Below the pieces are notes generated by a model that had not been told where the DNA came from, did no database searches, and saw only the letters and a program-made list of their open reading frames with translations. From Deltaproteobacteria bacterium (GTDB lineage: Bacteria > BMS3Abin14), in the NCBI GenBank assembly GCA_013151915.1, contig JAADHJ010000044.1, positions 67,029 through 131,028 on the forward strand: 64,000 bases of DNA. Direction: 5' to 3'. The position numbers and the translations under genes are program-made. Positions 37,486 to 44,816 of the stretch are shown here, in pieces; positions within the stretch are counted from its first letter, which is position 1; the number at the start of each line of letters is the position of its first letter.

Positions 37486-38205
37486 TTAACAGGCCGGTTT
37501 TTCCCCAACGTGAAGAAAGGCGATGCCGAAAGTGAGGGGGCGGAACCTTACCTGCTCGAAGCCGGTCTCGGACATCTTTTCACTCAGGTCTCCGGGGTTT
37601 GGAAAGGAGTCCACCGAGCTGGGAAGATAACGGTATGCCCCTGATCTGCCGGAAATCATGCCTCCCAGAACGGGGAGGACATGGTGGAAGTAGAATCGAA
37701 AGAGGGGACCTAAGAGTCGATGGTCCATTGGGGAGAACTCCAGGACGATGACACGGCCCCCCGGCTTGAGCACCCGGAACATTTCATTTAGCCCTGTCGG
37801 CCTGTCGGGTAGGTTACGGAGACCGAAGGCGATGGTGACGGCGCTGAAGGTGCAGTCCGGAAATGGCAGGGCCATGGCGTCACCTGCCGTAAGGGTGATC
37901 CTTCCCTTTCCTCCCGTGCGAACCTTCGCCGCAGCCTGGTCGAGCATGGGAATGGTGAAATCCACGCCCACGATTTTTATTTCTCCCGGGATGTTTCTGA
38001 CCAGAGTCAAAGCCACATCGCCGGTCCCGGTTGCAAGGTCCAGGATGGGGGCTTTGCCCTGTCCATGCACCTCCTTGACCATATCCTTCCGCCAGCGGAT
38101 ATCCGCTCCCAGGCTCAGAATGTGGTTGAGCAGATCATAGTGCCCGGCTATGGATGAGAACATCCCCCTGATCGACTGGGATTCCTGTTTATGTTTTTGG
38201 GCCAT
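37486..38205 (-). CDS. ubiE: Demethylmenaquinone/ubiquinone C-methyltransferase
   Basis: UbiE/MenG N-terminus (VRGMFSSIAGHYDLLNHILSLG) and SAM motifs (ILDLATGTGD, VLKPGGRVIVLEFS). The start is taken at the internal ATG (MAQKHK). Confidence 0.8.
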   Translation of the reverse strand: MAQKHKQESQSIRGMFSSIAGHYDLLNHILSLGADIRWRKDMVKEVHGQGKAPILDLATGTGDVALTLVRNIPGEIKIVGVDFTIPMLDQAAAKVRTGGKGRITLTAGDAMALPFPDCTFSAVTIAFGLRNLPDRPTGLNEMFRVLKPGGRVIVLEFSPMDHRLLGPLFRFYFHHVLPVLGGMISGRSGAYRYLPSSVDSFPNPGDLSEKMSETGFEQVRFRPLTFGIAFLHVGEKPAC

Positions 38206-38531
38206 ATTCACCTTTCGGTCAGGCTTGATGACCTCGTAAAAAGTCTCTTCGCCAGGTTCCACCCCCACCTCTGGTCCTCCCCCTCAAGGGGGAGGAAGAA
38301 TACGGAAGGTGGCTTATTTTATGCCCACTCCAGGATGTGAAGGCCATGGCGGCGCCATGGCACAGAACGAGACTATATCTCAAAAAGAGGGGAATGTTAA
38401 CGGCACGGTTCCGGAGGGATAGAAAGGTGCTGCAAGGGGTCGTGACAGAGGGTTTTATTAGTGAAAGTTCTTTCTTGTTATATGTTTTGGCCTAATTATA
38501 AGCGATTGTGGAAAAGATCACAAAAAAAAGC

Positions 38532-38560
38532 TTGACATGTACCGGGTAGCTTGTTAAATT
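38532..38560 (+). promoter_or_regulatory. Sigma70-type promoter TTGACA-N17-TAAATT driving the small-protein pair
   Basis: A perfect -35 hexamer, a 17-bp spacer and a 4/6 -10 hexamer lie about 45 nt upstream of ATG 38606. Confidence 0.45.
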
Positions 38561-38605
38561 ATACACAAGCTTAGAAGTAATAGTTACCTGAAGGAGGTGT
38601 TTAAA

Positions 38606-38743
38606 ATGTTGGAGTTCCTGATGATGCTGGTAATAATGGCCCTGGTGTTTGGCGTTGTTTCCGGCCTGGTCGCTCTTGTAATAGGCGGTATTTTCAAGCT
38701 CAGCCGCTCCAGGTCCAAAAGCACGGTTTCTGAGGTTCTTTAA
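38606..38743 (+). CDS. Small single-TM protein, 45 aa (MLEFLMMLVIMALVFGVVSGLVALVIGGIFKLSRSRSKSTVSEVL)
   Basis: Strong ribosome-binding site AAGGAGGTG 7 nt upstream. It has a hydrophobic core and a basic C-tail. It is below the ORF-track length cutoff. Confidence 0.5.
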   Translation: MLEFLMMLVIMALVFGVVSGLVALVIGGIFKLSRSRSKSTVSEVL

Positions 38744-38777
38744 GACTTCAGATTAATTTCGAAGGGAGGAACCTGAA

Positions 38778-38915
38778 ATGTTGGAATTTATCACCACAAT
38801 GGCAGTGATCGCCCTGATATTTTGTGCCGCAACCGTTTTTGTAGCCCTGATCGCCGGCAGCCTGTTGAAAGCCCGGAATTATTTTCTCAGGAGAGCTAAG
38901 TCCGAAGTAGAGTAA
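38778..38915 (+). CDS. Small single-TM protein, 45 aa, paralog of the preceding gene (MLEFITTMAVIALIFCAATVFVALIAGSLLKARNYFLRRAKSEVE)
   Basis: Ribosome-binding site GGGAGGAAC. It has the same length, topology and MLEF start as its neighbour. Confidence 0.5.
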   Translation: MLEFITTMAVIALIFCAATVFVALIAGSLLKARNYFLRRAKSEVE

Positions 38916-38943
38916 GATGGACAGGAAAGATCCGGCAGGGAAA

Positions 38944-38968
38944 GGGGGAGCGTCGGCTCCCCCTTTTT
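38944..38968. terminator. Rho-independent terminator GGGGGAGC-gtcg-GCTCCCCC-TTTTT, shared by the convergent small-protein pair and the NapH-like gene
   Basis: A perfect 8-bp GC-rich stem with a T5 run on the plus strand and an A/T-rich flank on the other. Confidence 0.55.
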
Positions 38969-39986
38969 AATGGGAAAGCCCGGCGGCCAGGGGGATAAGG
39001 GTTCTATAGTCCGCGGGGGTAAGGGATGTCTGCCAATGTCCCGCCATCATTCCCCATCCCACCCCCAGGGTGAAAAGAAACAGGACAAAGGAGGGGAAGC
39101 CCCAGACCGGCAGAGGTTTTTTCCAGAAGGGCAGGGACATGGACAGGGCTTTATCTTCCGGACAATTGCTGACACAGGTCAGACAGCCGGTGCATTCGAC
39201 CGACCGAACCACAGTTTTCCTGTTCACAGGGAGGTAGGATGGGCATGACCGGGCGCATGATCCGCACTCCGTGCAGTTTTCCCCGTTGCGACGTATTTTC
39301 CAGGGACTGAGCAGGGAAAAAAGCCCCACCAGAGCGCCGTAGGGGCACAGATAGCGGCACCAGAAATTTTTCAACGGGAGGGAAAGAACAGCGAGGGCCA
39401 GAATGATTCCAGCGGCAAAAGGGGAGATGTGCACGAAAAAATCGAACATCTTGACGTCGGCCACTGCCCAATAGGGCCCATTGAGAAAGGGGAGAATCCC
39501 GGCAGCCGGCATTTTGAAGAAGATAATATTGATAAAGAGGTAAAGAAGAAGGTATTTGGCTGATCTCAGGGGAATGTCAACCGGCTTTGGCGGATGCCAG
39601 GTGCGGCCGAACAGTTTTTCTCCCCCCTTCCAGAGCCGCTCGGACAAAGTGCCCACCGGGCAGATGAAGGAACAAAAGGATTTCTTGGCGGCGAGGCTCA
39701 TTCCGAAAAAGGTCATGAGGAGGATAATACCCGCGGGATGAACGGGGTGAATCACTCCGGTCGAAAAAAGATGCCTGAGACCGACAAGTGACCCGATGGG
39801 GAGGAAAGCCTCCACTGATGGAGGTCTCGGAAATCCCGGCGTACCCCCCAGACGGTACCGATGGACGAAAATCCCGAAACGCACCCCGATAAAAATACAC
39901 CAGAGCAGGAAGCCCCACTGACTGATCTTCCGAAAGAAAATGCCCCGGGAAGCTAAAACCTTGAGATTCGGGAGATGGTGCATCAC
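38967..39986 (-). CDS. NapH/MauN-like membrane polyferredoxin (4Fe-4S binding)
   Basis: Multiple TM segments plus C..C..C...CP motifs (CTECGSCARSCP, CTGCLTCVSNCP) and the extra CPVG / CPYG cysteines typical of the family. Confidence 0.7.
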   Translation of the reverse strand: MMHHLPNLKVLASRGIFFRKISQWGFLLWCIFIGVRFGIFVHRYRLGGTPGFPRPPSVEAFLPIGSLVGLRHLFSTGVIHPVHPAGIILLMTFFGMSLAAKKSFCSFICPVGTLSERLWKGGEKLFGRTWHPPKPVDIPLRSAKYLLLYLFINIIFFKMPAAGILPFLNGPYWAVADVKMFDFFVHISPFAAGIILALAVLSLPLKNFWCRYLCPYGALVGLFSLLSPWKIRRNGENCTECGSCARSCPSYLPVNRKTVVRSVECTGCLTCVSNCPEDKALSMSLPFWKKPLPVWGFPSFVLFLFTLGVGWGMMAGHWQTSLTPADYRTLIPLAAGLSH

Positions 39987-40606
39987 GGTGGGGAAGGCGT
40001 GGCCGAACCCCAGTAGTTAAAACTCGCGGGTTTCCAGCCGGGTATATACATGGATTCAATCATCTCAATTCTGAACCCCGACCGTTCAATGAGCGATGGG
40101 ATAGGACGGTCAAGGTGGCAGCCGCCGCTGACCATTTTCCAGAGAGGATTTATCCGTTTCTGCCACCGCAAGACCCCTTGATCGGGCGCTGATCCGTGCT
40201 CACAGAATATGAGCTTTCCGCGAGGCTTCAGAACACGGCGCATTTCCCCAAGGGCCGGAAGGATATTCGGAATCGTACAGAGGGCATATGTTACTAATAT
40301 CGTGTCCATACTGGCGTCATCAAGCGGAATTTTTTCGGCTGACCCCTGGATGAACTGAACATCAAAACCGGCGGTCTCCACGCTTTTTTCCGCCATGGCC
40401 CATAACTCACGGGATGGATCCAGACCCCATAATCGGCGGACACGGTCGCTTGAGTAAAAAGGAATATTGAGCCCGGACCCTATCCCGATCTCCAGCACCA
40501 GGCCTTCCGCCATCGGAACGACTTTTTTCCGCTGTTTCATAAGCGGCGCTCCTCCGCAGGTGAGGTGCACTAATCTTGGGAGAAAATATTTTCCATAAAT
40601 ACCCAT
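39983..40606 (-). CDS. Class I SAM-dependent methyltransferase
   Basis: Motif I LVLEIGIGSG and post-I and motif II regions (VLKPRGKLIFCEH) are present. It overlaps the NapH-like gene by 4 bp. The start is uncertain (40606 or 40657). Confidence 0.65.
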   Translation of the reverse strand: MGIYGKYFLPRLVHLTCGGAPLMKQRKKVVPMAEGLVLEIGIGSGLNIPFYSSDRVRRLWGLDPSRELWAMAEKSVETAGFDVQFIQGSAEKIPLDDASMDTILVTYALCTIPNILPALGEMRRVLKPRGKLIFCEHGSAPDQGVLRWQKRINPLWKMVSGGCHLDRPIPSLIERSGFRIEMIESMYIPGWKPASFNYWGSATPSPP

Positions 40607-40815
40607 GTATCCTCCGGTATGGTTGTCGATTCTCCTCCCTGCAACACGGGCCGACACTTCTCATATTATGGCGTTTAAGGGAAGAGACAAAACCCCCGTG
40701 AGAGCTTTGCCCATGAGGTGAACAACCGAAAAACAATCCTTCATTATTCTTTTCAACTGTGTTACCTTCCCCGCTTTCTGATAGAATAATAGCTATCATA
40801 GGGGCTGTATTTTAT

Positions 40816-40907
40816 GGGGGGCATAGTTAAGTTGTTAAGTCAGGATTCAAAATCTCTTTAAAAAAACAGCCCTCAACCGGACAACTTAACAACTTAACTA
40901 CGTCCCC
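40816..40907 (+). promoter_or_regulatory. Long near-perfect hairpin in the thiC 5' leader (about 22-bp stem, about 40-nt loop)
   Basis: GGGGGGCATAGTTAAGTTGTTAAGTC ... GACAACTTAACAACTTAACTACGTCCCC. It ends 20 nt before the thiC ATG. No canonical TPP-riboswitch motifs were found. Confidence 0.4.
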
Positions 40908-40927
40908 TGGGAACTGGAGATTAATCG

Positions 40928-42196
40928 ATGAGCACCCAGAGAATAGCCGCCCTTGAAGGGCGCACCACGGAGATAATGAGGCAGGTCGCGGAGGACGAGG
41001 AAGTCTCCACGGACCAGGTGATTGAGGTTCTTGCCGCCGGGACGGCCGCCATTCCGGCCAACCCTGCCCACACGTCCCTGAAGCCCAAAGGAATAGGGGG
41101 CCCGTTTACCGTCAAGGTCAACGCCAACTTTGGAACCAGTCTGGCATGCAACGATCCGGACCAGGAGCTCGCCAAGCTGGAGGCGGCTATTGACGCCGGT
41201 GCCGACGCCATTATGGATCTTTCCACGGGCGGTGACATGGAGGGATTGCGGAAGGAGATCATCAAGCGTTCCACCGTTCCGGTGGGAACGGTTCCTATCT
41301 ATGACGCGGCAGTGAGCGCCTACGAAAGAAACGGAGACCCATCCTGTATTACTCCCGACGATCTTTTCGATGCCGTAAGGAAACACGCGGAAGCCGGGGT
41401 GGATTTCGTAACCCTGCACTGCGGCGTCACCAGGTCGGCGGTGGCGAAGGTTCGCAGTTCAGCCCGGGTGACCCGCATAGTCAGCCGTGGGGGATCGCTT
41501 CTTGCCGCATGGATGGAGAGGGAAGGGAAGGAGAATCCGCTTTACACGTATTACGACGACCTGCTGACGATCCTGAAGGAACACGATGTCACGATCAGCC
41601 TTGGTGATGGGCTGCGCCCTGGAAGCCTTGCGGACGCCACCGACCCCGCCCAGATAGAGGAACTCGTCACGCTGGGAGAACTGACTATCAGGGCCTGGGA
41701 TGCCGGTGTCCAGGTGATAGTGGAGGGGCCCGGTCACATTCCTCTGCATCAGATTGAGACCAACGTCGTGCTCCAGAAGAGGTTGTGCCACGGGGCTCCC
41801 TTTTACGTCCTTGGACCGCTCGTGACCGATGTTGGAGCGGGGTATGATCATATTACCGGGGCCATCGGCGGCGCCATCGCAGGGATGGCGGGAGCCGATT
41901 TTCTCTGCTATGTCACTCCCGCCGAGCATCTCGGCCTACCCAATGTGGACGACGTCAGGCACGGAGTCATGGCCTCGCGTATAGCCGCCCATGCCGTGGA
42001 TATTGCAAGGGGAAACCGGAGAGCCATAGACCGGGACGCTGCCATGTCGCGATGCCGGGTGACACTGGACTGGCAGGGACAAATGGACCACGCACTCGAT
42101 CCGGTGGAGTTTAAACGGAGGTTTGCCGATCACCCGGTTCTCGAAGACGTATGTTCTATGTGCGGCAAGCTTTGCGCCATGAAGATTTTCAGTTGA
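40928..42196 (+). CDS. thiC: Phosphomethylpyrimidine synthase, short anaerobe-type
   Basis: The ThiC core is conserved throughout and the C-terminal cluster ligands are C-x2-C-x4-C (CSMCGKLC). Confidence 0.9.
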   Translation: MSTQRIAALEGRTTEIMRQVAEDEEVSTDQVIEVLAAGTAAIPANPAHTSLKPKGIGGPFTVKVNANFGTSLACNDPDQELAKLEAAIDAGADAIMDLSTGGDMEGLRKEIIKRSTVPVGTVPIYDAAVSAYERNGDPSCITPDDLFDAVRKHAEAGVDFVTLHCGVTRSAVAKVRSSARVTRIVSRGGSLLAAWMEREGKENPLYTYYDDLLTILKEHDVTISLGDGLRPGSLADATDPAQIEELVTLGELTIRAWDAGVQVIVEGPGHIPLHQIETNVVLQKRLCHGAPFYVLGPLVTDVGAGYDHITGAIGGAIAGMAGADFLCYVTPAEHLGLPNVDDVRHGVMASRIAAHAVDIARGNRRAIDRDAAMSRCRVTLDWQGQMDHALDPVEFKRRFADHPVLEDVCSMCGKLCAMKIFS

Positions 42197-42635: not shown

Positions 42636-44816
42636 GTGAAAGTTGAAGCTAAAATCAGGCCAAGGGAAGAACTCTCTCTTCGGGTAGCCGAAGCGTTCAT
42701 CGAGGACGTGGGCAAGGGGTTTGCCCGCGTGGATACCGAGGAGTTGAAGAGCATAAGAGCCGTTCCCGGCGATCTACTCATGATTTCCGGCCGCGGGTCT
42801 ACGGTGGCTCGCACGGCGCAGGCTACCCCTGAGTATTCCGGACAAAGCCTGATTCAGATAGACGGTATTACGCGGGAAAATGCCAACGTTTCGGTTGATG
42901 AATGGTGTACAATTCGGAAAGTCCCCTTCAAACCGGCTGAGAGCATCCTGCTCTCACCTATGGAAACCGCCAGTATAATTCCGAAAGATTCCGAAATCCC
43001 CCATATACTTCAGATGCTTTCAGGGCGGTACGTGGTGCTTGGCGACAAAATCCAGGTCACCCTCTTCGGTACGCGGCCCCAATTCTTTATTGTTGATGGC
43101 GCGAGTCCGCGAGGGGCGCTCCTGATAACTTCCAATACCTCCATCTCCTTTAAAACTCCCGATGTCTTGCACGAAAAGGCTGCCAGAATTTCCTACGAGG
43201 ATATTGGAGGGCTGGAAAAGGAGTTAAGCCGTGTCAAGGAGATGATAGAGCTTCCGTTGAGATTTCCGGACCTCTTTACCAAGCTTGGCATTGATCCCCC
43301 AAAAGGTGTCCTCCTCTCAGGGCCTCCGGGCACAGGAAAAACCCTTGTGGCCCGCACCATCTCCAGTGAGGTCAGGGCGCATTTTATCCACGTGAATGGT
43401 CCCGAGGTCATCCATAAGTATTACGGGGAAAGCGAGGCTAAGCTAAGGGAGGTATTTGAAGAGGCACGAAGAAACGCTCCCAGTATCATTTTCCTCGACG
43501 AGATCGATGCTCTCGCCCCGAGGAGGGCCAAGGTTATCGGGGACGTTGAAAAACGTGTTGTCGCCCAGCTGCTTGCCCTGATGGACGGCCTGGTTTCCAG
43601 GGGGGATGTGGTGATTATCGGCGCCACCAATCTTCCTGAGCTGGTCGATCCGGCACTTCGGCGTCCCGGACGTTTCGATCGTGAGATCAGCATCGGCGTT
43701 CCCAATAGACCGGGCCGTCTCCAGATTCTGAAGATCCATTCCCGCAAGATGCCGCTTGCAGCCGATGTCGATCTGGACCGCCTTGCAGAAATCACCCATG
43801 GGTACGTGGGAGCCGATATTGCCGCCCTTTGTAAGGAGGCAGGCATGGCGACCCTGCGGCGAATCATGCCGGAGATCAAGTTCGAGGTGGACAAAAAGCC
43901 GGTGCTGAAAAATGGTTTAAGCATTGAGGTTACCGCCGAAGATTTCCTGACGGCCTTCAAGGGAGTCGAGCCGACCTCCACCCGGGAGTTCATGGTTGAA
44001 CGGCCTCGTCTTTCCTTTAACGACATCGGGGGATTGAAAGAGATCAAGCGGAAACTTCGTTCGATCGTACAGCTTCCCCTGCAGGGATTGTCTCTCTTTG
44101 CCAATTCCCGCCTGGGTCCGCCCAAGGGGGTTCTTTTCTCCGGTCCGTCCGGGACCGGGAAGACCCTGATGGCCAGGTCCCTTGCGGGGGAAATGGGCAT
44201 GACCCTGATAGTCGTTGATCCTCCGACCCTTCTGTCGAAGTGGGTTGGCGAGTCTGAAAAGGGACTCAGGGAGGTATTCAAACGGGCAAAGCAGGCTTCG
44301 CCCTGCATCCTGTTTTTTGACGAGATCGAAACCATCGCCTCGGCGCGTTCCGCTGATGATGCGGGTAATGTATCCCAGAGAATGGTCAGCCAGCTTTTCA
44401 GGGAACTGGATGGCCTTCACGGTTCTCTCGGGGTTGTCGTCATTGCCGCAACGAATCGAATTGACCTGATGGAGCCGGCCCTGCTCAGAGCCGGACGTTT
44501 TGACTATGTCGTTGAATTTCCCCTTCCGGATCGTGAGGAAAGGCAGGAGATCCTTGAGACCTATTTGCGGTCCCTGCCGTTGGATACCGATGTGGATATC
44601 GATACCCTGGCGGATGCGAGTGAGGGATGGACCGGAGCCGACCTGGAGGCTTCATGTAAGAGGGCCATCATGTTGGGGCTGGAAGAATGTTCGAAAGGCG
44701 ATGGGGAGGCTGATTTTTCACGCTGTGTATTGACCTCCCATCATTTCGCTGAAGCGGCCCGGCAGCATGCCGCTTTGTCTAATATTTCGTCGTCAGCCTT
44801 TAAGCGGAAAGGTTGA
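42636..44816 (+). CDS. Cdc48/p97/VAT-like double AAA+ ATPase (N-domain + D1 + D2)
   Basis: The Cdc48-N-like double-psi barrel start is followed by two Walker A motifs (GPPGTGKTLVA, GPSGTGKTLMA), two Walker B motifs (IIFLDEID, ILFFDEIE) and second-region-of-homology arginines. It has a GTG start. Confidence 0.8.
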   Translation: MKVEAKIRPREELSLRVAEAFIEDVGKGFARVDTEELKSIRAVPGDLLMISGRGSTVARTAQATPEYSGQSLIQIDGITRENANVSVDEWCTIRKVPFKPAESILLSPMETASIIPKDSEIPHILQMLSGRYVVLGDKIQVTLFGTRPQFFIVDGASPRGALLITSNTSISFKTPDVLHEKAARISYEDIGGLEKELSRVKEMIELPLRFPDLFTKLGIDPPKGVLLSGPPGTGKTLVARTISSEVRAHFIHVNGPEVIHKYYGESEAKLREVFEEARRNAPSIIFLDEIDALAPRRAKVIGDVEKRVVAQLLALMDGLVSRGDVVIIGATNLPELVDPALRRPGRFDREISIGVPNRPGRLQILKIHSRKMPLAADVDLDRLAEITHGYVGADIAALCKEAGMATLRRIMPEIKFEVDKKPVLKNGLSIEVTAEDFLTAFKGVEPTSTREFMVERPRLSFNDIGGLKEIKRKLRSIVQLPLQGLSLFANSRLGPPKGVLFSGPSGTGKTLMARSLAGEMGMTLIVVDPPTLLSKWVGESEKGLREVFKRAKQASPCILFFDEIETIASARSADDAGNVSQRMVSQLFRELDGLHGSLGVVVIAATNRIDLMEPALLRAGRFDYVVEFPLPDREERQEILETYLRSLPLDTDVDIDTLADASEGWTGADLEASCKRAIMLGLEECSKGDGEADFSRCVLTSHHFAEAARQHAALSNISSSAFKRKG

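What the first reader, a model, noticed from the sequence alone, without database searches (positions are those of the whole stretch)
38532..38968. Tandem pair of 45-aa single-TM proteins (both starting MLEF) with promoter, strong ribosome-binding sites and terminator, invisible to the 60-aa ORF track
The cassette runs in this order:
- a consensus-like sigma70 promoter (TTGACA-17-TAAATT);
- two paralogous 45-codon ORFs, each with a strong Shine-Dalgarno site at optimal spacing (AAGGAGGTG, GGGAGGAAC), each encoding a hydrophobic helix plus a basic tail;
- a GC-rich stem with a T5 terminator.

This compact, highly expressed-looking cassette sits in an otherwise gene-free roughly 700 bp. The duplicated small hydrophobic-plus-basic-tail design resembles small membrane toxins or regulators (Hok, Ldr, TisB-like or KdpF-like), but there is no sequence similarity I can assert.
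Basis: seen in the sequence. Interest (0 to 1): 0.65.

Follow-up and report, generated by a model that had tools for sequence, protein, structure and literature searches.

The report
Conserved tandem pair of membrane microproteins
Two real, strongly conserved 45-residue single-helix membrane proteins are made from their own tightly built, repressor-type promoter in an uncultured sediment bacterium; they belong to a small uncharacterised family whose job is unknown, and they do not look like a classic toxin.

Summary
ORF A (38606-38743) and ORF B (38778-38915) each encode 45 aa starting MLEF. Each has a GGAGG 8 nt before the ATG. Upstream is TTGACA-17-TGnTAAATT; downstream is a strong hairpin plus T5.

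Both are real genes. The A-then-B pair recurs in 41 distinct metagenomic loci. dN/dS is 0.05-0.17 for B and 0.1-0.5 for A, while synonymous sites are saturated. GenBank already lists them as hypothetical proteins (GXP52_08710 and GXP52_08715).

There is no Pfam, NCBIfam, PDB, Rfam or viral match. Only 34 representatives turned up among 1.84 billion proteins. All are from uncultured lineages; the nearest named one is candidate phylum BMS3Abin14.

B's helix core (FCAATVFVAL) is almost invariant. Both proteins share a small-xxx-small stripe (T/S19, A23, G27) and a basic tail, which suggests an N-out/C-in heteromer.

The promoter shows a clean phylogenetic footprint. Two 18-bp palindromes, always 44-45 bp apart, match the Rex/CRP-type box; one covers the -10 and the start site.

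Type I toxin features are absent: no antisense promoter and no structured leader. Partner-operon placement is also absent.

My best reading is a highly expressed, repressor-gated heteromeric membrane microprotein pair, possibly linked to redox or energy metabolism. The function is unproven.

The parts
38458..38469 (+). Distal conserved box O3 (TTAGTGAAAGTT; the core GTGAAAGT resembles one Rex/CRP-type half-site), about 100 bp upstream of the predicted transcription start
   Evidence: 7 of 12 positions are invariant in 8 diverged loci, while the flanking DNA has 0 of 28 and 1 of 36 invariant positions. GTGAAAGT lies at the same relative position in nearly all loci.
38506..38523 (+). Operator-like palindrome O2, TTGTGGAAAAGATCACAA (TTGTG-N8-CACAA), centred near -52.5. 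It overlaps the position of an UP element.
   Evidence: It is the only exact TTGTG-N8-CACAA in 64 kb. It has 2 mismatches to the Rex box TTGTKAANNNNTTMACAA. It is present 44-45 bp upstream of O1 in essentially all loci.
38522..38529 (+). A-tract directly upstream of the -35, in the position of a proximal UP-element subsite (-45 to -38)
   Evidence: The A run is conserved in all 8 aligned loci. Reading it as an UP element rests on the known E. coli consensus and is an inference.
38532..38537 (+). -35 hexamer TTGACA
   Evidence: It is 6 of 6 invariant in 8 diverged loci and present in 38 of 38 distinct upstream regions.
38549..38570 (+). Operator palindrome O1, GCTTGT-N10-ACAAGC. It contains the extended -10 (TGTTAAATT, 38552-38560) and the predicted start site (about 38567). 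The Rex-box-like 18-mer TTGTTAAATTATACACAA is at 38551-38568.
   Evidence: It has 1 mismatch to the Rex box. It is a perfect TTGTTAAAATTTTAACAA in at least 9 distinct loci. 15 of 22 positions are invariant in 8 loci, against 0 of 11 and 0 of 20 in the adjacent spacer and leader. CTTGT-N10-ACAAG occurs only once elsewhere (L016) in the 258 kb scanned.
38591..38599 (+). Shine-Dalgarno site of ORF A (AAGGAGGTG; GGAGG ends 8 nt before the ATG)
   Evidence: It is conserved (6 of 9 invariant). The leader has no more structure than shuffled sequence.
38606..38743 (+). ORF A: the 45-aa A-type microprotein (more variable, G/V/I at position 16). It has one transmembrane helix and a basic tail. GenBank GXP52_08710.
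   Evidence: dN/dS is 0.1-0.5. It is always the first gene of the pair in 41 distinct pairs. The Kyte-Doolittle 19-residue maximum is 2.95.
38764..38769 (+). Shine-Dalgarno site of ORF B (GGGAGG; 8-nt spacer)
   Evidence: GGAGG or GGGAG is conserved in the aligned loci.
38778..38915 (+). ORF B: the 45-aa B-type microprotein with a near-invariant core F15-C16-A-A-T-V-F-V-A-L24. It has one transmembrane helix and a basic tail. GenBank GXP52_08715.
   Evidence: dN/dS is 0.05-0.17 with dS saturated. Mean entropy is 0.47 bit per position against 0.88 for A. AlphaFold2 gives one helix over residues 2-44 with pLDDT 88.
38941..38968 (+). Intrinsic terminator (11-bp G+C-rich stem, 4-nt loop, T5). Its T-run overlaps the stop codon of the convergent NapH-like gene.
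   Evidence: z = -3.8. An equivalent hairpin plus U-run, with a different sequence, follows ORF B in 8 of 8 loci folded.

Best explanation
This is an autonomous two-gene operon for a pair of paralogous single-pass membrane microproteins.

**Shown**
- Both frames are genuine genes under purifying selection.
- They are always arranged A then B, behind one promoter and before one terminator.
- Each peptide is one long hydrophobic helix: residues about 5-30, acidic MLEF at the N-terminus, Lys/Arg-rich C-tail.

**Inferred**
- By the positive-inside rule the proteins insert N-out/C-in.
- The two helices pack against each other, and probably against further copies or another membrane protein. The contact would run through the shared small-xxx-small stripe (T/S19, A23, G27).
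- B's helix is constrained on all faces, so it is buried in a protein assembly rather than serving as a mere anchor.
- Expression is built to be very high: a consensus -35, an extended -10, an A-tract/UP-like element, open consensus Shine-Dalgarno sites and an unstructured leader.
- Expression is gated by a dimeric repressor that binds two conserved 18-bp palindromes a fixed 44-45 bp apart. One covers -16 to +2 and would block RNA polymerase.
- These boxes match the Rex (NADH/NAD+-sensing) operator, which cannot be told apart by sequence from CRP/FNR-type HcpR sites.

**Proposal**
The pair is switched on by a redox or energy signal. It then acts inside the membrane as a heteromeric structural or regulatory module of energy metabolism. 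It is not a suicide toxin.
For: **Coding**
- 41 distinct A-then-B pairs were found.
- Nei-Gojobori dN/dS is 0.05-0.17 for B and 0.1-0.5 for A, with pS up to 0.7-0.86.

**Paralogy and family**
- The two peptides align with E = 6e-8.
- A profile built mainly on B retrieves A-type proteins at about 1e-10 in 1.84e9 sequences.

**Membrane helix**
- Hydropathy and charge distribution fit a transmembrane helix with a basic tail.
- AlphaFold2 gives a single helix with pLDDT 88.

**Packing motif and all-round constraint of B**
- Per-position table.

**Own transcription unit**
- Promoter.
- Terminator in 8 of 8 loci.
- The neighbouring genes differ between lineages.

**Operators**
- The only two Rex-box matches with 2 or fewer mismatches in 64 kb are both here.
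- O1 is a perfect box in at least 9 distinct loci, and the spacing is fixed.
- The footprint shows conserved islands between fully diverged spacers.
- Rex consensus sequences come from PMC5355995 and PMC5367854.
- In Desulfovibrio, Rex and HcpR1 sites are identical (PMC5701242).

**Open leader**
-.
Against: - No experiment or expression data exist; everything about function is inference.
- No rex or crp/fnr gene was found in the 374 kb of DNA I could read.
- O2 sits where an UP element would be and is centred at about -52.5. Part of its conservation may therefore reflect promoter strength rather than a regulator.
- The -10 hexamer lies inside O1, so part of O1's conservation is promoter sequence too.
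- No partner complex is identified. The ubiE (quinone methyltransferase) neighbourhood is confined to closely related genomes (UbiE 64-77% identical), so it may be inherited synteny only.
- Two loci carry B alone (L051, L052), so a strict 1:1 heteromer is not obligatory.
Confidence: 0.5

Rival explanations
1. A repressor-controlled membrane toxin pair of the TisB/DinQ type. On a stress signal the repressor leaves, the peptides flood the membrane, dissipate the proton motive force and cause growth arrest or persistence.
For: - The peptides are small hydrophobic helices with basic tails.
- An operator overlaps the -10 and start site, as the LexA box does at tisB (the tisB comparison is from my own knowledge).
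- Glycine-zipper-like small-xxx-small stripes are typical of pore-forming helices (the general knowledge is mine).
Against: - No antisense promoter lies across the ORFs and no sRNA family matches.
- Synonymous sites are unconstrained.
- The leader is short and unstructured, with an exposed consensus Shine-Dalgarno site. Type I toxin mRNAs are the opposite.
- The helix sequence is very strongly and deeply conserved (dN/dS about 0.05), and pairing is obligatory across lineages. Type I toxins are usually fast-evolving and narrowly distributed.
- The locus is chromosomal and single-copy, and the family is absent from viral contigs.
Confidence: 0.13
2. Dedicated small subunits (like CydX, KdpF or AcrZ) of one particular membrane complex. 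The candidate would be a quinone-dependent redox complex, suggested by the ubiE/ubiD/ubiA/ubiX neighbours and the NapH-like polyferredoxin next door.
For: - The pair is divergent from ubiE in the window, L002, L010, L012 and L019. In L012 and L019 ubiE is followed by ubiD-ubiA-ubiX.
- A convergent NapH-like Fer4_5 membrane protein lies at 38967-39986.
- All-face conservation of B fits a helix enclosed by a partner.
- Rex-type control is typical of respiratory genes (PMC5355995).
Against: - The pair always has its own promoter and terminator and is never co-transcribed with a partner.
- In other lineages the neighbours are tauE/mraZ-dcw, or pcnB/spoU/glyoxalase.
- The ubiE linkage is limited to close relatives.
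- No PDB chain of any solved complex matches the family profile.
Confidence: 0.2
3. Exported or leaderless two-peptide bacteriocin, or a signalling peptide pair.
For: - Two adjacent small cationic or hydrophobic peptides carry GxxxG-like motifs behind a strong promoter.
Against: - There is no double-glycine leader.
- No ABC transporter, immunity or modification gene lies nearby in any context.
- A 26-27-residue uninterrupted hydrophobic helix with a positive-inside tail predicts retention in the producer's membrane.
- Deep sequence conservation is unlike bacteriocins.
Confidence: 0.03
4. Chance ORFs in an intergenic region, with no gene present.
For: - The ORFs are short, lie below usual ORF cut-offs, and match no known domain.
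Against: - The frames are conserved in 41 distinct loci with dN/dS well below 1 and saturated synonymous sites.
- The Shine-Dalgarno sites, promoter and terminator are conserved.
Confidence: 0.01

Closest known systems
TisB/IstR-1 and DinQ/AgrB (repressor-controlled type I membrane toxins of E. coli)
   Same: - A small single-helix hydrophobic peptide.
- A promoter shut by a dimeric repressor whose palindromic box overlaps the core promoter.
   Different: - No antisense or sRNA partner is detectable.
- The leader is unstructured and has a consensus Shine-Dalgarno site.
- There are two obligatorily paired paralogues.
- The transmembrane sequence is extremely conserved.
- The operator resembles Rex/CRP boxes, not a LexA box.
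- There is no sequence similarity.
Small accessory membrane subunits (CydX/CydH of cytochrome bd, KdpF, AcrZ, MgtS)
   Same: - Proteins under 50 aa with one transmembrane helix.
- They act by helix-helix contact inside a larger membrane assembly.
- Rex controls cyd operons in several bacteria (PMC5355995).
   Different: - Those genes sit inside or next to their partner's operon.
- This pair is a stand-alone bicistron in changing neighbourhoods.
- There is no Pfam, NCBIfam or PDB similarity.
Light-harvesting alpha/beta polypeptides (pufBA, pucBA)
   Same: - A tandem pair of paralogous single-helix proteins of about 45-55 aa.
- They are translated from one abundant bicistronic mRNA ending in a strong hairpin.
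- They form heterodimers that oligomerise.
   Different: - There is no conserved histidine (bacteriochlorophyll ligand) in either helix.
- There is no LHC Pfam match.
- There are no photosynthesis genes nearby.
- The hosts are dark sediment and vent lineages.
Rex regulon operators (ROP boxes TTGTGAANNNNTTCACAA and TTGTTAANNNNTTAACAA)
   Same: - The operators are 18-bp palindromes. One has 0-2 mismatches to the box and overlaps the -10 and start site, the classic repressor position.
- A second box and a half-site lie upstream.
   Different: - The regulator is not identified in this organism.
- The same sequence is bound by CRP/FNR-type HcpR1 in Desulfovibrio (PMC5701242).
- Known Rex targets are enzymes and respiratory complexes, not microprotein pairs.
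Class IIb two-peptide bacteriocins
   Same: - Two adjacent genes encode small helical peptides with GxxxG-like motifs that function as a pair.
   Different: - There is no leader, transporter or immunity gene.
- The predicted topology keeps the peptides in the producer's own membrane.
- The pair is conserved across deep lineages.

Membership tests
Type I toxin-antitoxin (Hok/Sok, Ldr/Rdl, TisB/IstR-1) | Small (under 60 aa) hydrophobic single-helix peptide | tested here: met
   Each peptide is 45 aa. The Kyte-Doolittle 19-residue maximum is 2.8-2.95, and AlphaFold2 gives a single helix.
Type I toxin-antitoxin (Hok/Sok, Ldr/Rdl, TisB/IstR-1) | Antisense or adjacent sRNA antitoxin | tested here: not met
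   No minus-strand promoter-like site lies in 38600-38920. No Rfam sRNA matches at gathering score or at E <= 1. Synonymous sites are saturated, so no overlapping RNA constrains them. A novel trans-acting sRNA encoded elsewhere cannot be excluded.
Type I toxin-antitoxin (Hok/Sok, Ldr/Rdl, TisB/IstR-1) | Structured, translationally inert toxin mRNA with a sequestered ribosome-binding site | tested here: not met
   In 6 loci the leader plus the first codons fold no better than shuffles (z = -0.26 to +1.49), and there is no conserved pairing of the Shine-Dalgarno site.
Type I toxin-antitoxin (Hok/Sok, Ldr/Rdl, TisB/IstR-1) | Sequence membership in a described toxin family | tested here: not met
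   No Pfam family matches at E <= 0.01. In NCBIfam only chance-level hits appear.
Type I toxin-antitoxin (Hok/Sok, Ldr/Rdl, TisB/IstR-1) | Toxicity or membrane depolarisation on overexpression | not testable with these tools
   This needs an induction experiment.
Small accessory subunits of membrane complexes (KdpF, CydX, AcrZ type) | Gene lies inside or beside the partner complex's operon | tested here: not met
   The pair has its own promoter and terminator. Its neighbours differ between lineages: ubiE; tauE and mraZ; pcnB, spoU and glyoxalase.
Small accessory subunits of membrane complexes (KdpF, CydX, AcrZ type) | Physical association with a larger complex | not testable with these tools
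   The profile finds no chain in any solved structure. Co-purification would be needed.
Rex (NADH/NAD+-sensing repressor) regulon | 18-bp ROP box (TTGTKAANNNNTTMACAA) in the promoter | tested here: met
   O1 has 1 mismatch and O2 has 2. They are the only such hits in 64 kb, where 0.51 are expected by chance. O1 is perfect in at least 9 distinct loci, and the spacing is a constant 44-45 bp.
Rex (NADH/NAD+-sensing repressor) regulon | A rex gene in the same genome | tested here: inconclusive
The complete genomes were not available.
Rex (NADH/NAD+-sensing repressor) regulon | NADH-relieved binding and derepression | not testable with these tools
   This needs EMSA with and without NADH, or expression data. 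CRP/FNR-type HcpR binds identical sites (PMC5701242).
Light-harvesting alpha/beta polypeptides | Conserved intramembrane histidine ligand and an LHC domain | tested here: not met
   There is no His within residues 1-31 of any A or B sequence. There is no Pfam hit.
Class IIb or leaderless two-peptide bacteriocins | Leader peptide and/or an adjacent transporter and immunity gene | tested here: not met
   The proteins begin directly with MLEF followed by the helix. No such genes appear in any of the contexts read.
Flp / type IV pilins | Cleavable leader ending in Gly, followed by a hydrophobic helix with the E5 (EY) motif | tested here: not met
   There is no leader: Met1 is followed by L-E-F and then the helix. 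There is no Flp_Fap Pfam hit.

The most novel reading that the evidence does not exclude
The pair forms a hetero-oligomeric, glycine-zipper-type pore or leak in the cytoplasmic membrane. Its synthesis is gated by the NADH/NAD+ ratio through Rex. It would act as a regulated uncoupler or ion valve: when the cell becomes over-reduced, it lowers the membrane potential so that respiration can re-oxidise NADH. That would be a new physiological use of microproteins, found in an uncultured candidate phylum.
Probability: 0.07. Interest if true: 0.75.

Novelty: new member of a known kind. Interest (0 to 1): 0.4.

Why it matters
Bacterial microproteins are systematically under-annotated, and few have deep comparative support.

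This pair is unusually well supported. It has 41 independent paired loci and very low dN/dS. Its transmembrane core is nearly invariant. Its promoter shows a clean phylogenetic footprint with three operator-like boxes.

It comes from lineages with no cultured member; the nearest is candidate phylum BMS3Abin14 (Ca. Hudomiota). If the Rex-type control holds, the pair would link redox sensing to a membrane microprotein module. It would also give a tractable entry point, two 45-residue peptides and a 110-bp promoter, into the physiology of an uncultured phylum.

If it does not hold, this is simply a new family of small membrane proteins of unknown function.

Tried and rejected
- **Domain and structure libraries.** Pfam and NCBIfam scans of both peptides and of relatives gave nothing meaningful. 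A profile search against all PDB chain sequences gave 0 hits at E <= 10.
- **RNA families.** Rfam found none over the whole window at gathering score. At E <= 1 over 38200-41000 it gave only noise.
- **Viral contigs.** No family member was found.
- **Intercistronic hairpin at 38729-38752 (flagged).** It is not better than shuffles and is not conserved, so I dropped it as a feature.
- **5' leader structure that might hide the Shine-Dalgarno site.** None was found.
- **A second promoter with the same two boxes in L045.** This turned out to be an inverted-duplication assembly artefact of the same locus.
- **A 721-aa member (P0102) in a cluster listing.** It is an unrelated transposase and I ignored it.
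- **Search for rex or crp genes in all fetched DNA.** None was found, but only 374 kb could be searched.
- **Taxonomy of the second clade via its RsmH.** The nearest named relatives are only labelled '[bacterium]'.
- **ubiE adjacency as a functional clue.** I downgraded it because the genomes sharing it are close relatives (UbiE 64-77% identical, PPDK about 80%).
- **Light-harvesting, pilin, TatA, RiPP-precursor and bacteriocin readings.** I rejected them for lack of their defining residues or neighbouring genes.
Full report
**1. Observation**

- ORF A is ATG 38606 to 38743. ORF B is ATG 38778 to 38915. Each encodes 45 residues beginning MLEF.
- Each ORF is preceded by GGAGG ending 8 nt before its ATG.
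- Upstream lies TTGACA, then 17 nt, then TAAATT with a TG extension.
- Downstream lies an 11-bp G+C-rich hairpin followed by T5, at 38941-38968. Its free energy is -27.2 kcal/mol and 0 of 200 shuffles fold as well.
- The flanking genes are a ubiE/menG-type methyltransferase on the minus strand and a NapH-like polyferredoxin membrane protein, also on the minus strand.
  - The ubiE ORF runs 37486-38268. Alignment with homologues puts its real start at 38205.
  - The NapH-like gene runs 38967-39986.
- The cassette therefore sits alone in 700-760 bp. It is divergent from ubiE and convergent with the polyferredoxin gene.
- The two peptides align without internal gaps over residues 1-34 (36% identity, E = 6e-8).

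**2. Are they genes?**

Yes.

- A search of 5.8 billion proteins found peptide A itself plus two relatives (73-78% identical). It found 62 relatives of peptide B.
- Both window ORFs already exist in GenBank as hypothetical proteins GXP52_08710 and GXP52_08715. The record is a MAG labelled Deltaproteobacteria bacterium.
- I fetched the encoding contigs and scanned metagenome contigs. This gave 41 distinct pairs.
  - In every pair an A-type gene comes first and a B-type gene follows after 31-67 nt.
  - Only L051 and L052 show B alone behind the same promoter.
- Nei-Gojobori estimates over the ungapped first 33 codons give dN/dS of 0.05-0.17 for B and 0.1-0.5 for A. Synonymous differences reach saturation (pS 0.7-0.86) between the window and the more distant loci.
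That condition is clearly not met.

**3. The family**

- Neither peptide matches Pfam or NCBIfam.
- A profile of 66 members matches no chain of any solved structure.
- An exhaustive HMMER pass over 1.84 billion cluster representatives finds only 34 proteins at E <= 0.001.
  - All are about 40-50 aa, or longer only through mis-called upstream starts or short C-terminal extensions.
- None is on a viral contig.
- The closest named genome is 'bacterium BMS3Abin14'. It gives its name to a GTDB candidate phylum, proposed name Ca. Hudomiota, known only from freshwater, hydrothermal-sediment and sub-seafloor MAGs (PMC11382960; PMC12400630).
- A second clade, with B starting MLEFITMLSV, sits in genomes whose nearest named relatives are merely '[bacterium]'.

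**4. The proteins**

- Each peptide has an acidic four-residue N-terminus (M-L/M-E-F).
- That is followed by 26-27 uninterrupted apolar residues. The Kyte-Doolittle 19-residue maxima are 2.8-2.95.
- The tail carries on average about four Lys/Arg and almost no acidic residues in its first ten positions.
- AlphaFold2, run with the family alignment, gives one continuous helix over residues 2-44 with mean pLDDT 88.
- By the positive-inside rule (established knowledge) this predicts an N-out/C-in signal anchor with only about 3 residues outside.
- B is far more constrained than A: mean entropy is 0.47 against 0.88 bit per position.
  - F15, C16, A18, T19 and V20 are invariant.
  - F21, V22, A23 and L24 are conserved in at least 95% of 38 distinct sequences.
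  - Consecutive residues cover every face of a helix, so B is probably enclosed by protein rather than lipid (inference).
- A and B share M1, E3, F4, F15, T/S19, V22, A23, G27, G28 and K/R31.
- The stripe T/S19-A23-G27 is a small-xxx-small-xxx-small motif. Motifs of this kind mediate tight helix packing (general knowledge).
- The invariant mid-membrane Cys16 is specific to B.
- The constant A-then-B order, the shared packing stripe and the unequal constraint all fit a heteromer. This is inference, not demonstration.

**5. The transcription unit and its control**

*The footprint.* I aligned the upstream regions of eight loci whose coding synonymous sites are saturated. The result is a clean phylogenetic footprint.

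| Element | Window coordinates | Invariant in all 8 loci |
|---|---|---|
| Far upstream | 38430-38457 | 0/28 |
| O3 box | 38458-38469 | 7/12 |
| Between O3 and O2 | 38470-38505 | 1/36 |
| O2 plus A-tract | 38506-38531 | 15/26 |
| -35 hexamer | 38532-38537 | 6/6 |
| Promoter spacer | 38538-38548 | 0/11 |
| O1 palindrome | 38549-38570 | 15/22 |
| Leader | 38571-38590 | 0/20 |
| Shine-Dalgarno site | 38591-38599 | 6/9 |

*O1.* O1 is GCTTGT-N10-ACAAGC.
- It contains the extended -10 and the predicted start site (about 38567).
- Its downstream arm has no promoter function, yet it is invariant.
- In L022 and others the whole 22 bp is a perfect palindrome, GCTTGTTAAAATTTTAACAAGC.
- The 18-mer inside it matches the Rex operator as used for clostridia, TTGTTAANNNNTTAACAA (PMC5367854). 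It is one base per half-site away from the general ROP box TTGTGAANNNNTTCACAA (PMC5355995).
- The window copy has 1 mismatch. At least 9 distinct loci have none.

*O2.* O2 is TTGTG-N8-CACAA.
- It has 2 mismatches to the Rex box.
- It lies a constant 44-45 bp upstream of O1 in every locus.

*Specificity.* In the whole 64-kb window these two are the only matches with 2 or fewer mismatches, where 0.51 are expected by chance.

*Inferred mechanism.* An operator spanning -16 to +2 implies repression by occlusion of RNA polymerase.

*Caveats.*
- In Desulfovibrio, Rex and the CRP/FNR-type HcpR1 recognise identical sites (PMC5701242).
- O2 and the A-tract occupy the position of an UP element.
- I found no rex or crp gene in the 374 kb I could read.

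I therefore treat 'a Rex-type or CRP/FNR-type dimeric repressor' as likely, and 'Rex' specifically as a hypothesis.

*The rest of the unit.*
- The leader of about 39 nt is no more structured than shuffled sequence in six loci, so the consensus Shine-Dalgarno site is exposed.
- A strong terminator follows B in 8 of 8 loci, although its sequence differs between loci.
- The stem-loop between A and B that the scan flagged is neither significant nor conserved.

**6. Genomic context**

The neighbours change between lineages.

| Loci | Neighbouring genes |
|---|---|
| Window, L002, L010 | ubiE and the NapH-like gene |
| L012, L019 | ubiX-ubiA-ubiD-ubiE plus a Sel1 protein |
| L022, L024, L026 | tauE upstream, the mraZ-dcw cluster downstream |
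| L016 | pcnB, spoU and a glyoxalase |

- The ubiE-linked genomes are close relatives. Their UbiE proteins are 64-77% identical and their PPDK about 80%.
- That linkage may therefore be inherited synteny rather than a functional signal.
- The one constant is the bicistron itself with its promoter and terminator.

**7. Interpretation**

*Best-supported reading.* This is a stand-alone operon for two paralogous N-out/C-in microproteins that assemble in the cytoplasmic membrane.
- They are produced in quantity when a palindrome-binding repressor releases the promoter.
- The resemblance to Rex boxes and the quinone-biosynthesis neighbourhood in one clade hint at a role in redox or energy metabolism.

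*Toxin reading.*
- The cassette lacks an antisense partner, a structured inert mRNA and family similarity.
- Its sequence conservation is the opposite of what type I toxins usually show.
- A TisB-like, repressor-gated depolarising peptide cannot be excluded without an induction experiment.

*Accessory-subunit reading.* This is compatible with how the proteins might work. It fails the usual genomic criterion of residing in the partner's operon.

*Other readings.* The light-harvesting, pilin and bacteriocin readings each fail a defining feature.

**8. Novelty and score**

- The genes are already deposited as hypothetical proteins, but the family is undescribed.
- It is a new member of the broad, known class of bacterial single-pass membrane microproteins.
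- It is made more attractive by its obligate pairing, its near-invariant helix and its conserved triple-box promoter.
- Nothing found demands a new mechanism.
- I score interest at 0.4.
- The most novel reading that remains open is an NADH-gated membrane leak or pore. I give it about 7% probability.

Noticed in passing
window 38276-38295: A perfect 8-bp inverted repeat with a 4-nt loop (CCTCCCCC-TCAA-GGGGGAGG) lies just upstream of ubiE. It sits inside a segment that is absent from the orthologous intergenic regions of L002, L004 and L010 (gaps in alignment A1). It gave only a noise-level Rfam hit. Its role is unknown.
   Followed up: partly
window 38343-38361: A 19-bp palindrome, GCCATGGCG-G-CGCCATGGC (9-bp arms), lies in the same window-specific stretch of the intergenic region. 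It is not present in the related loci aligned.
   Followed up: no
window 40658-40927 (upstream of thiC, 40928-42196): thiC has an A+T-rich 270-bp upstream region. No TPP riboswitch was detected there at Rfam gathering score or at E <= 1. That is unusual for thiC.
   Followed up: partly
window 42636-44816: A Cdc48/VAT-like ATPase (CDC48_N domain plus two AAA domains, 726 aa) is encoded here. It is conserved at the same position in the BMS3Abin14-like loci L002-L004.
   Followed up: no
window 37486-38268 (minus strand): The mechanical ORF for ubiE starts at GTG 38268 (260 aa). Homologues are 224-240 aa and align from MAQKHKQ onward. The true start is therefore probably ATG 38205, and the intergenic region is about 760 bp.
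   Followed up: partly
Logan ERR13166146 contig (no DNA held); proteins P0085, P0086, P0097: Some family members occur as three consecutive small ORFs (75 + 46 + 45 aa). Three longer variants share a conserved C-terminal extension ending in (I/R)CARN(T/V)PWP. Its meaning is unknown.
   Followed up: no
L051 1595-1840 and L052 76-320: The same O2/-35/O1 promoter drives a B-type gene alone, with no A-type gene. This shows that B can exist without A.
   Followed up: partly
L028 35-293: A distant single-copy family member (MFEFLLTLSVMALAFCVATVFVALIAGVGL...) overlaps the end of a 46-aa Cys-rich (CxxC...CxxC) ORF. It lacks the conserved promoter, so its context is different.
   Followed up: no
L045 1-4860: This metagenome contig is an inverted duplication of itself, an assembly palindrome. 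That is why the microprotein locus appears twice in opposite orientation. It is an artefact, not biology.
   Followed up: yes
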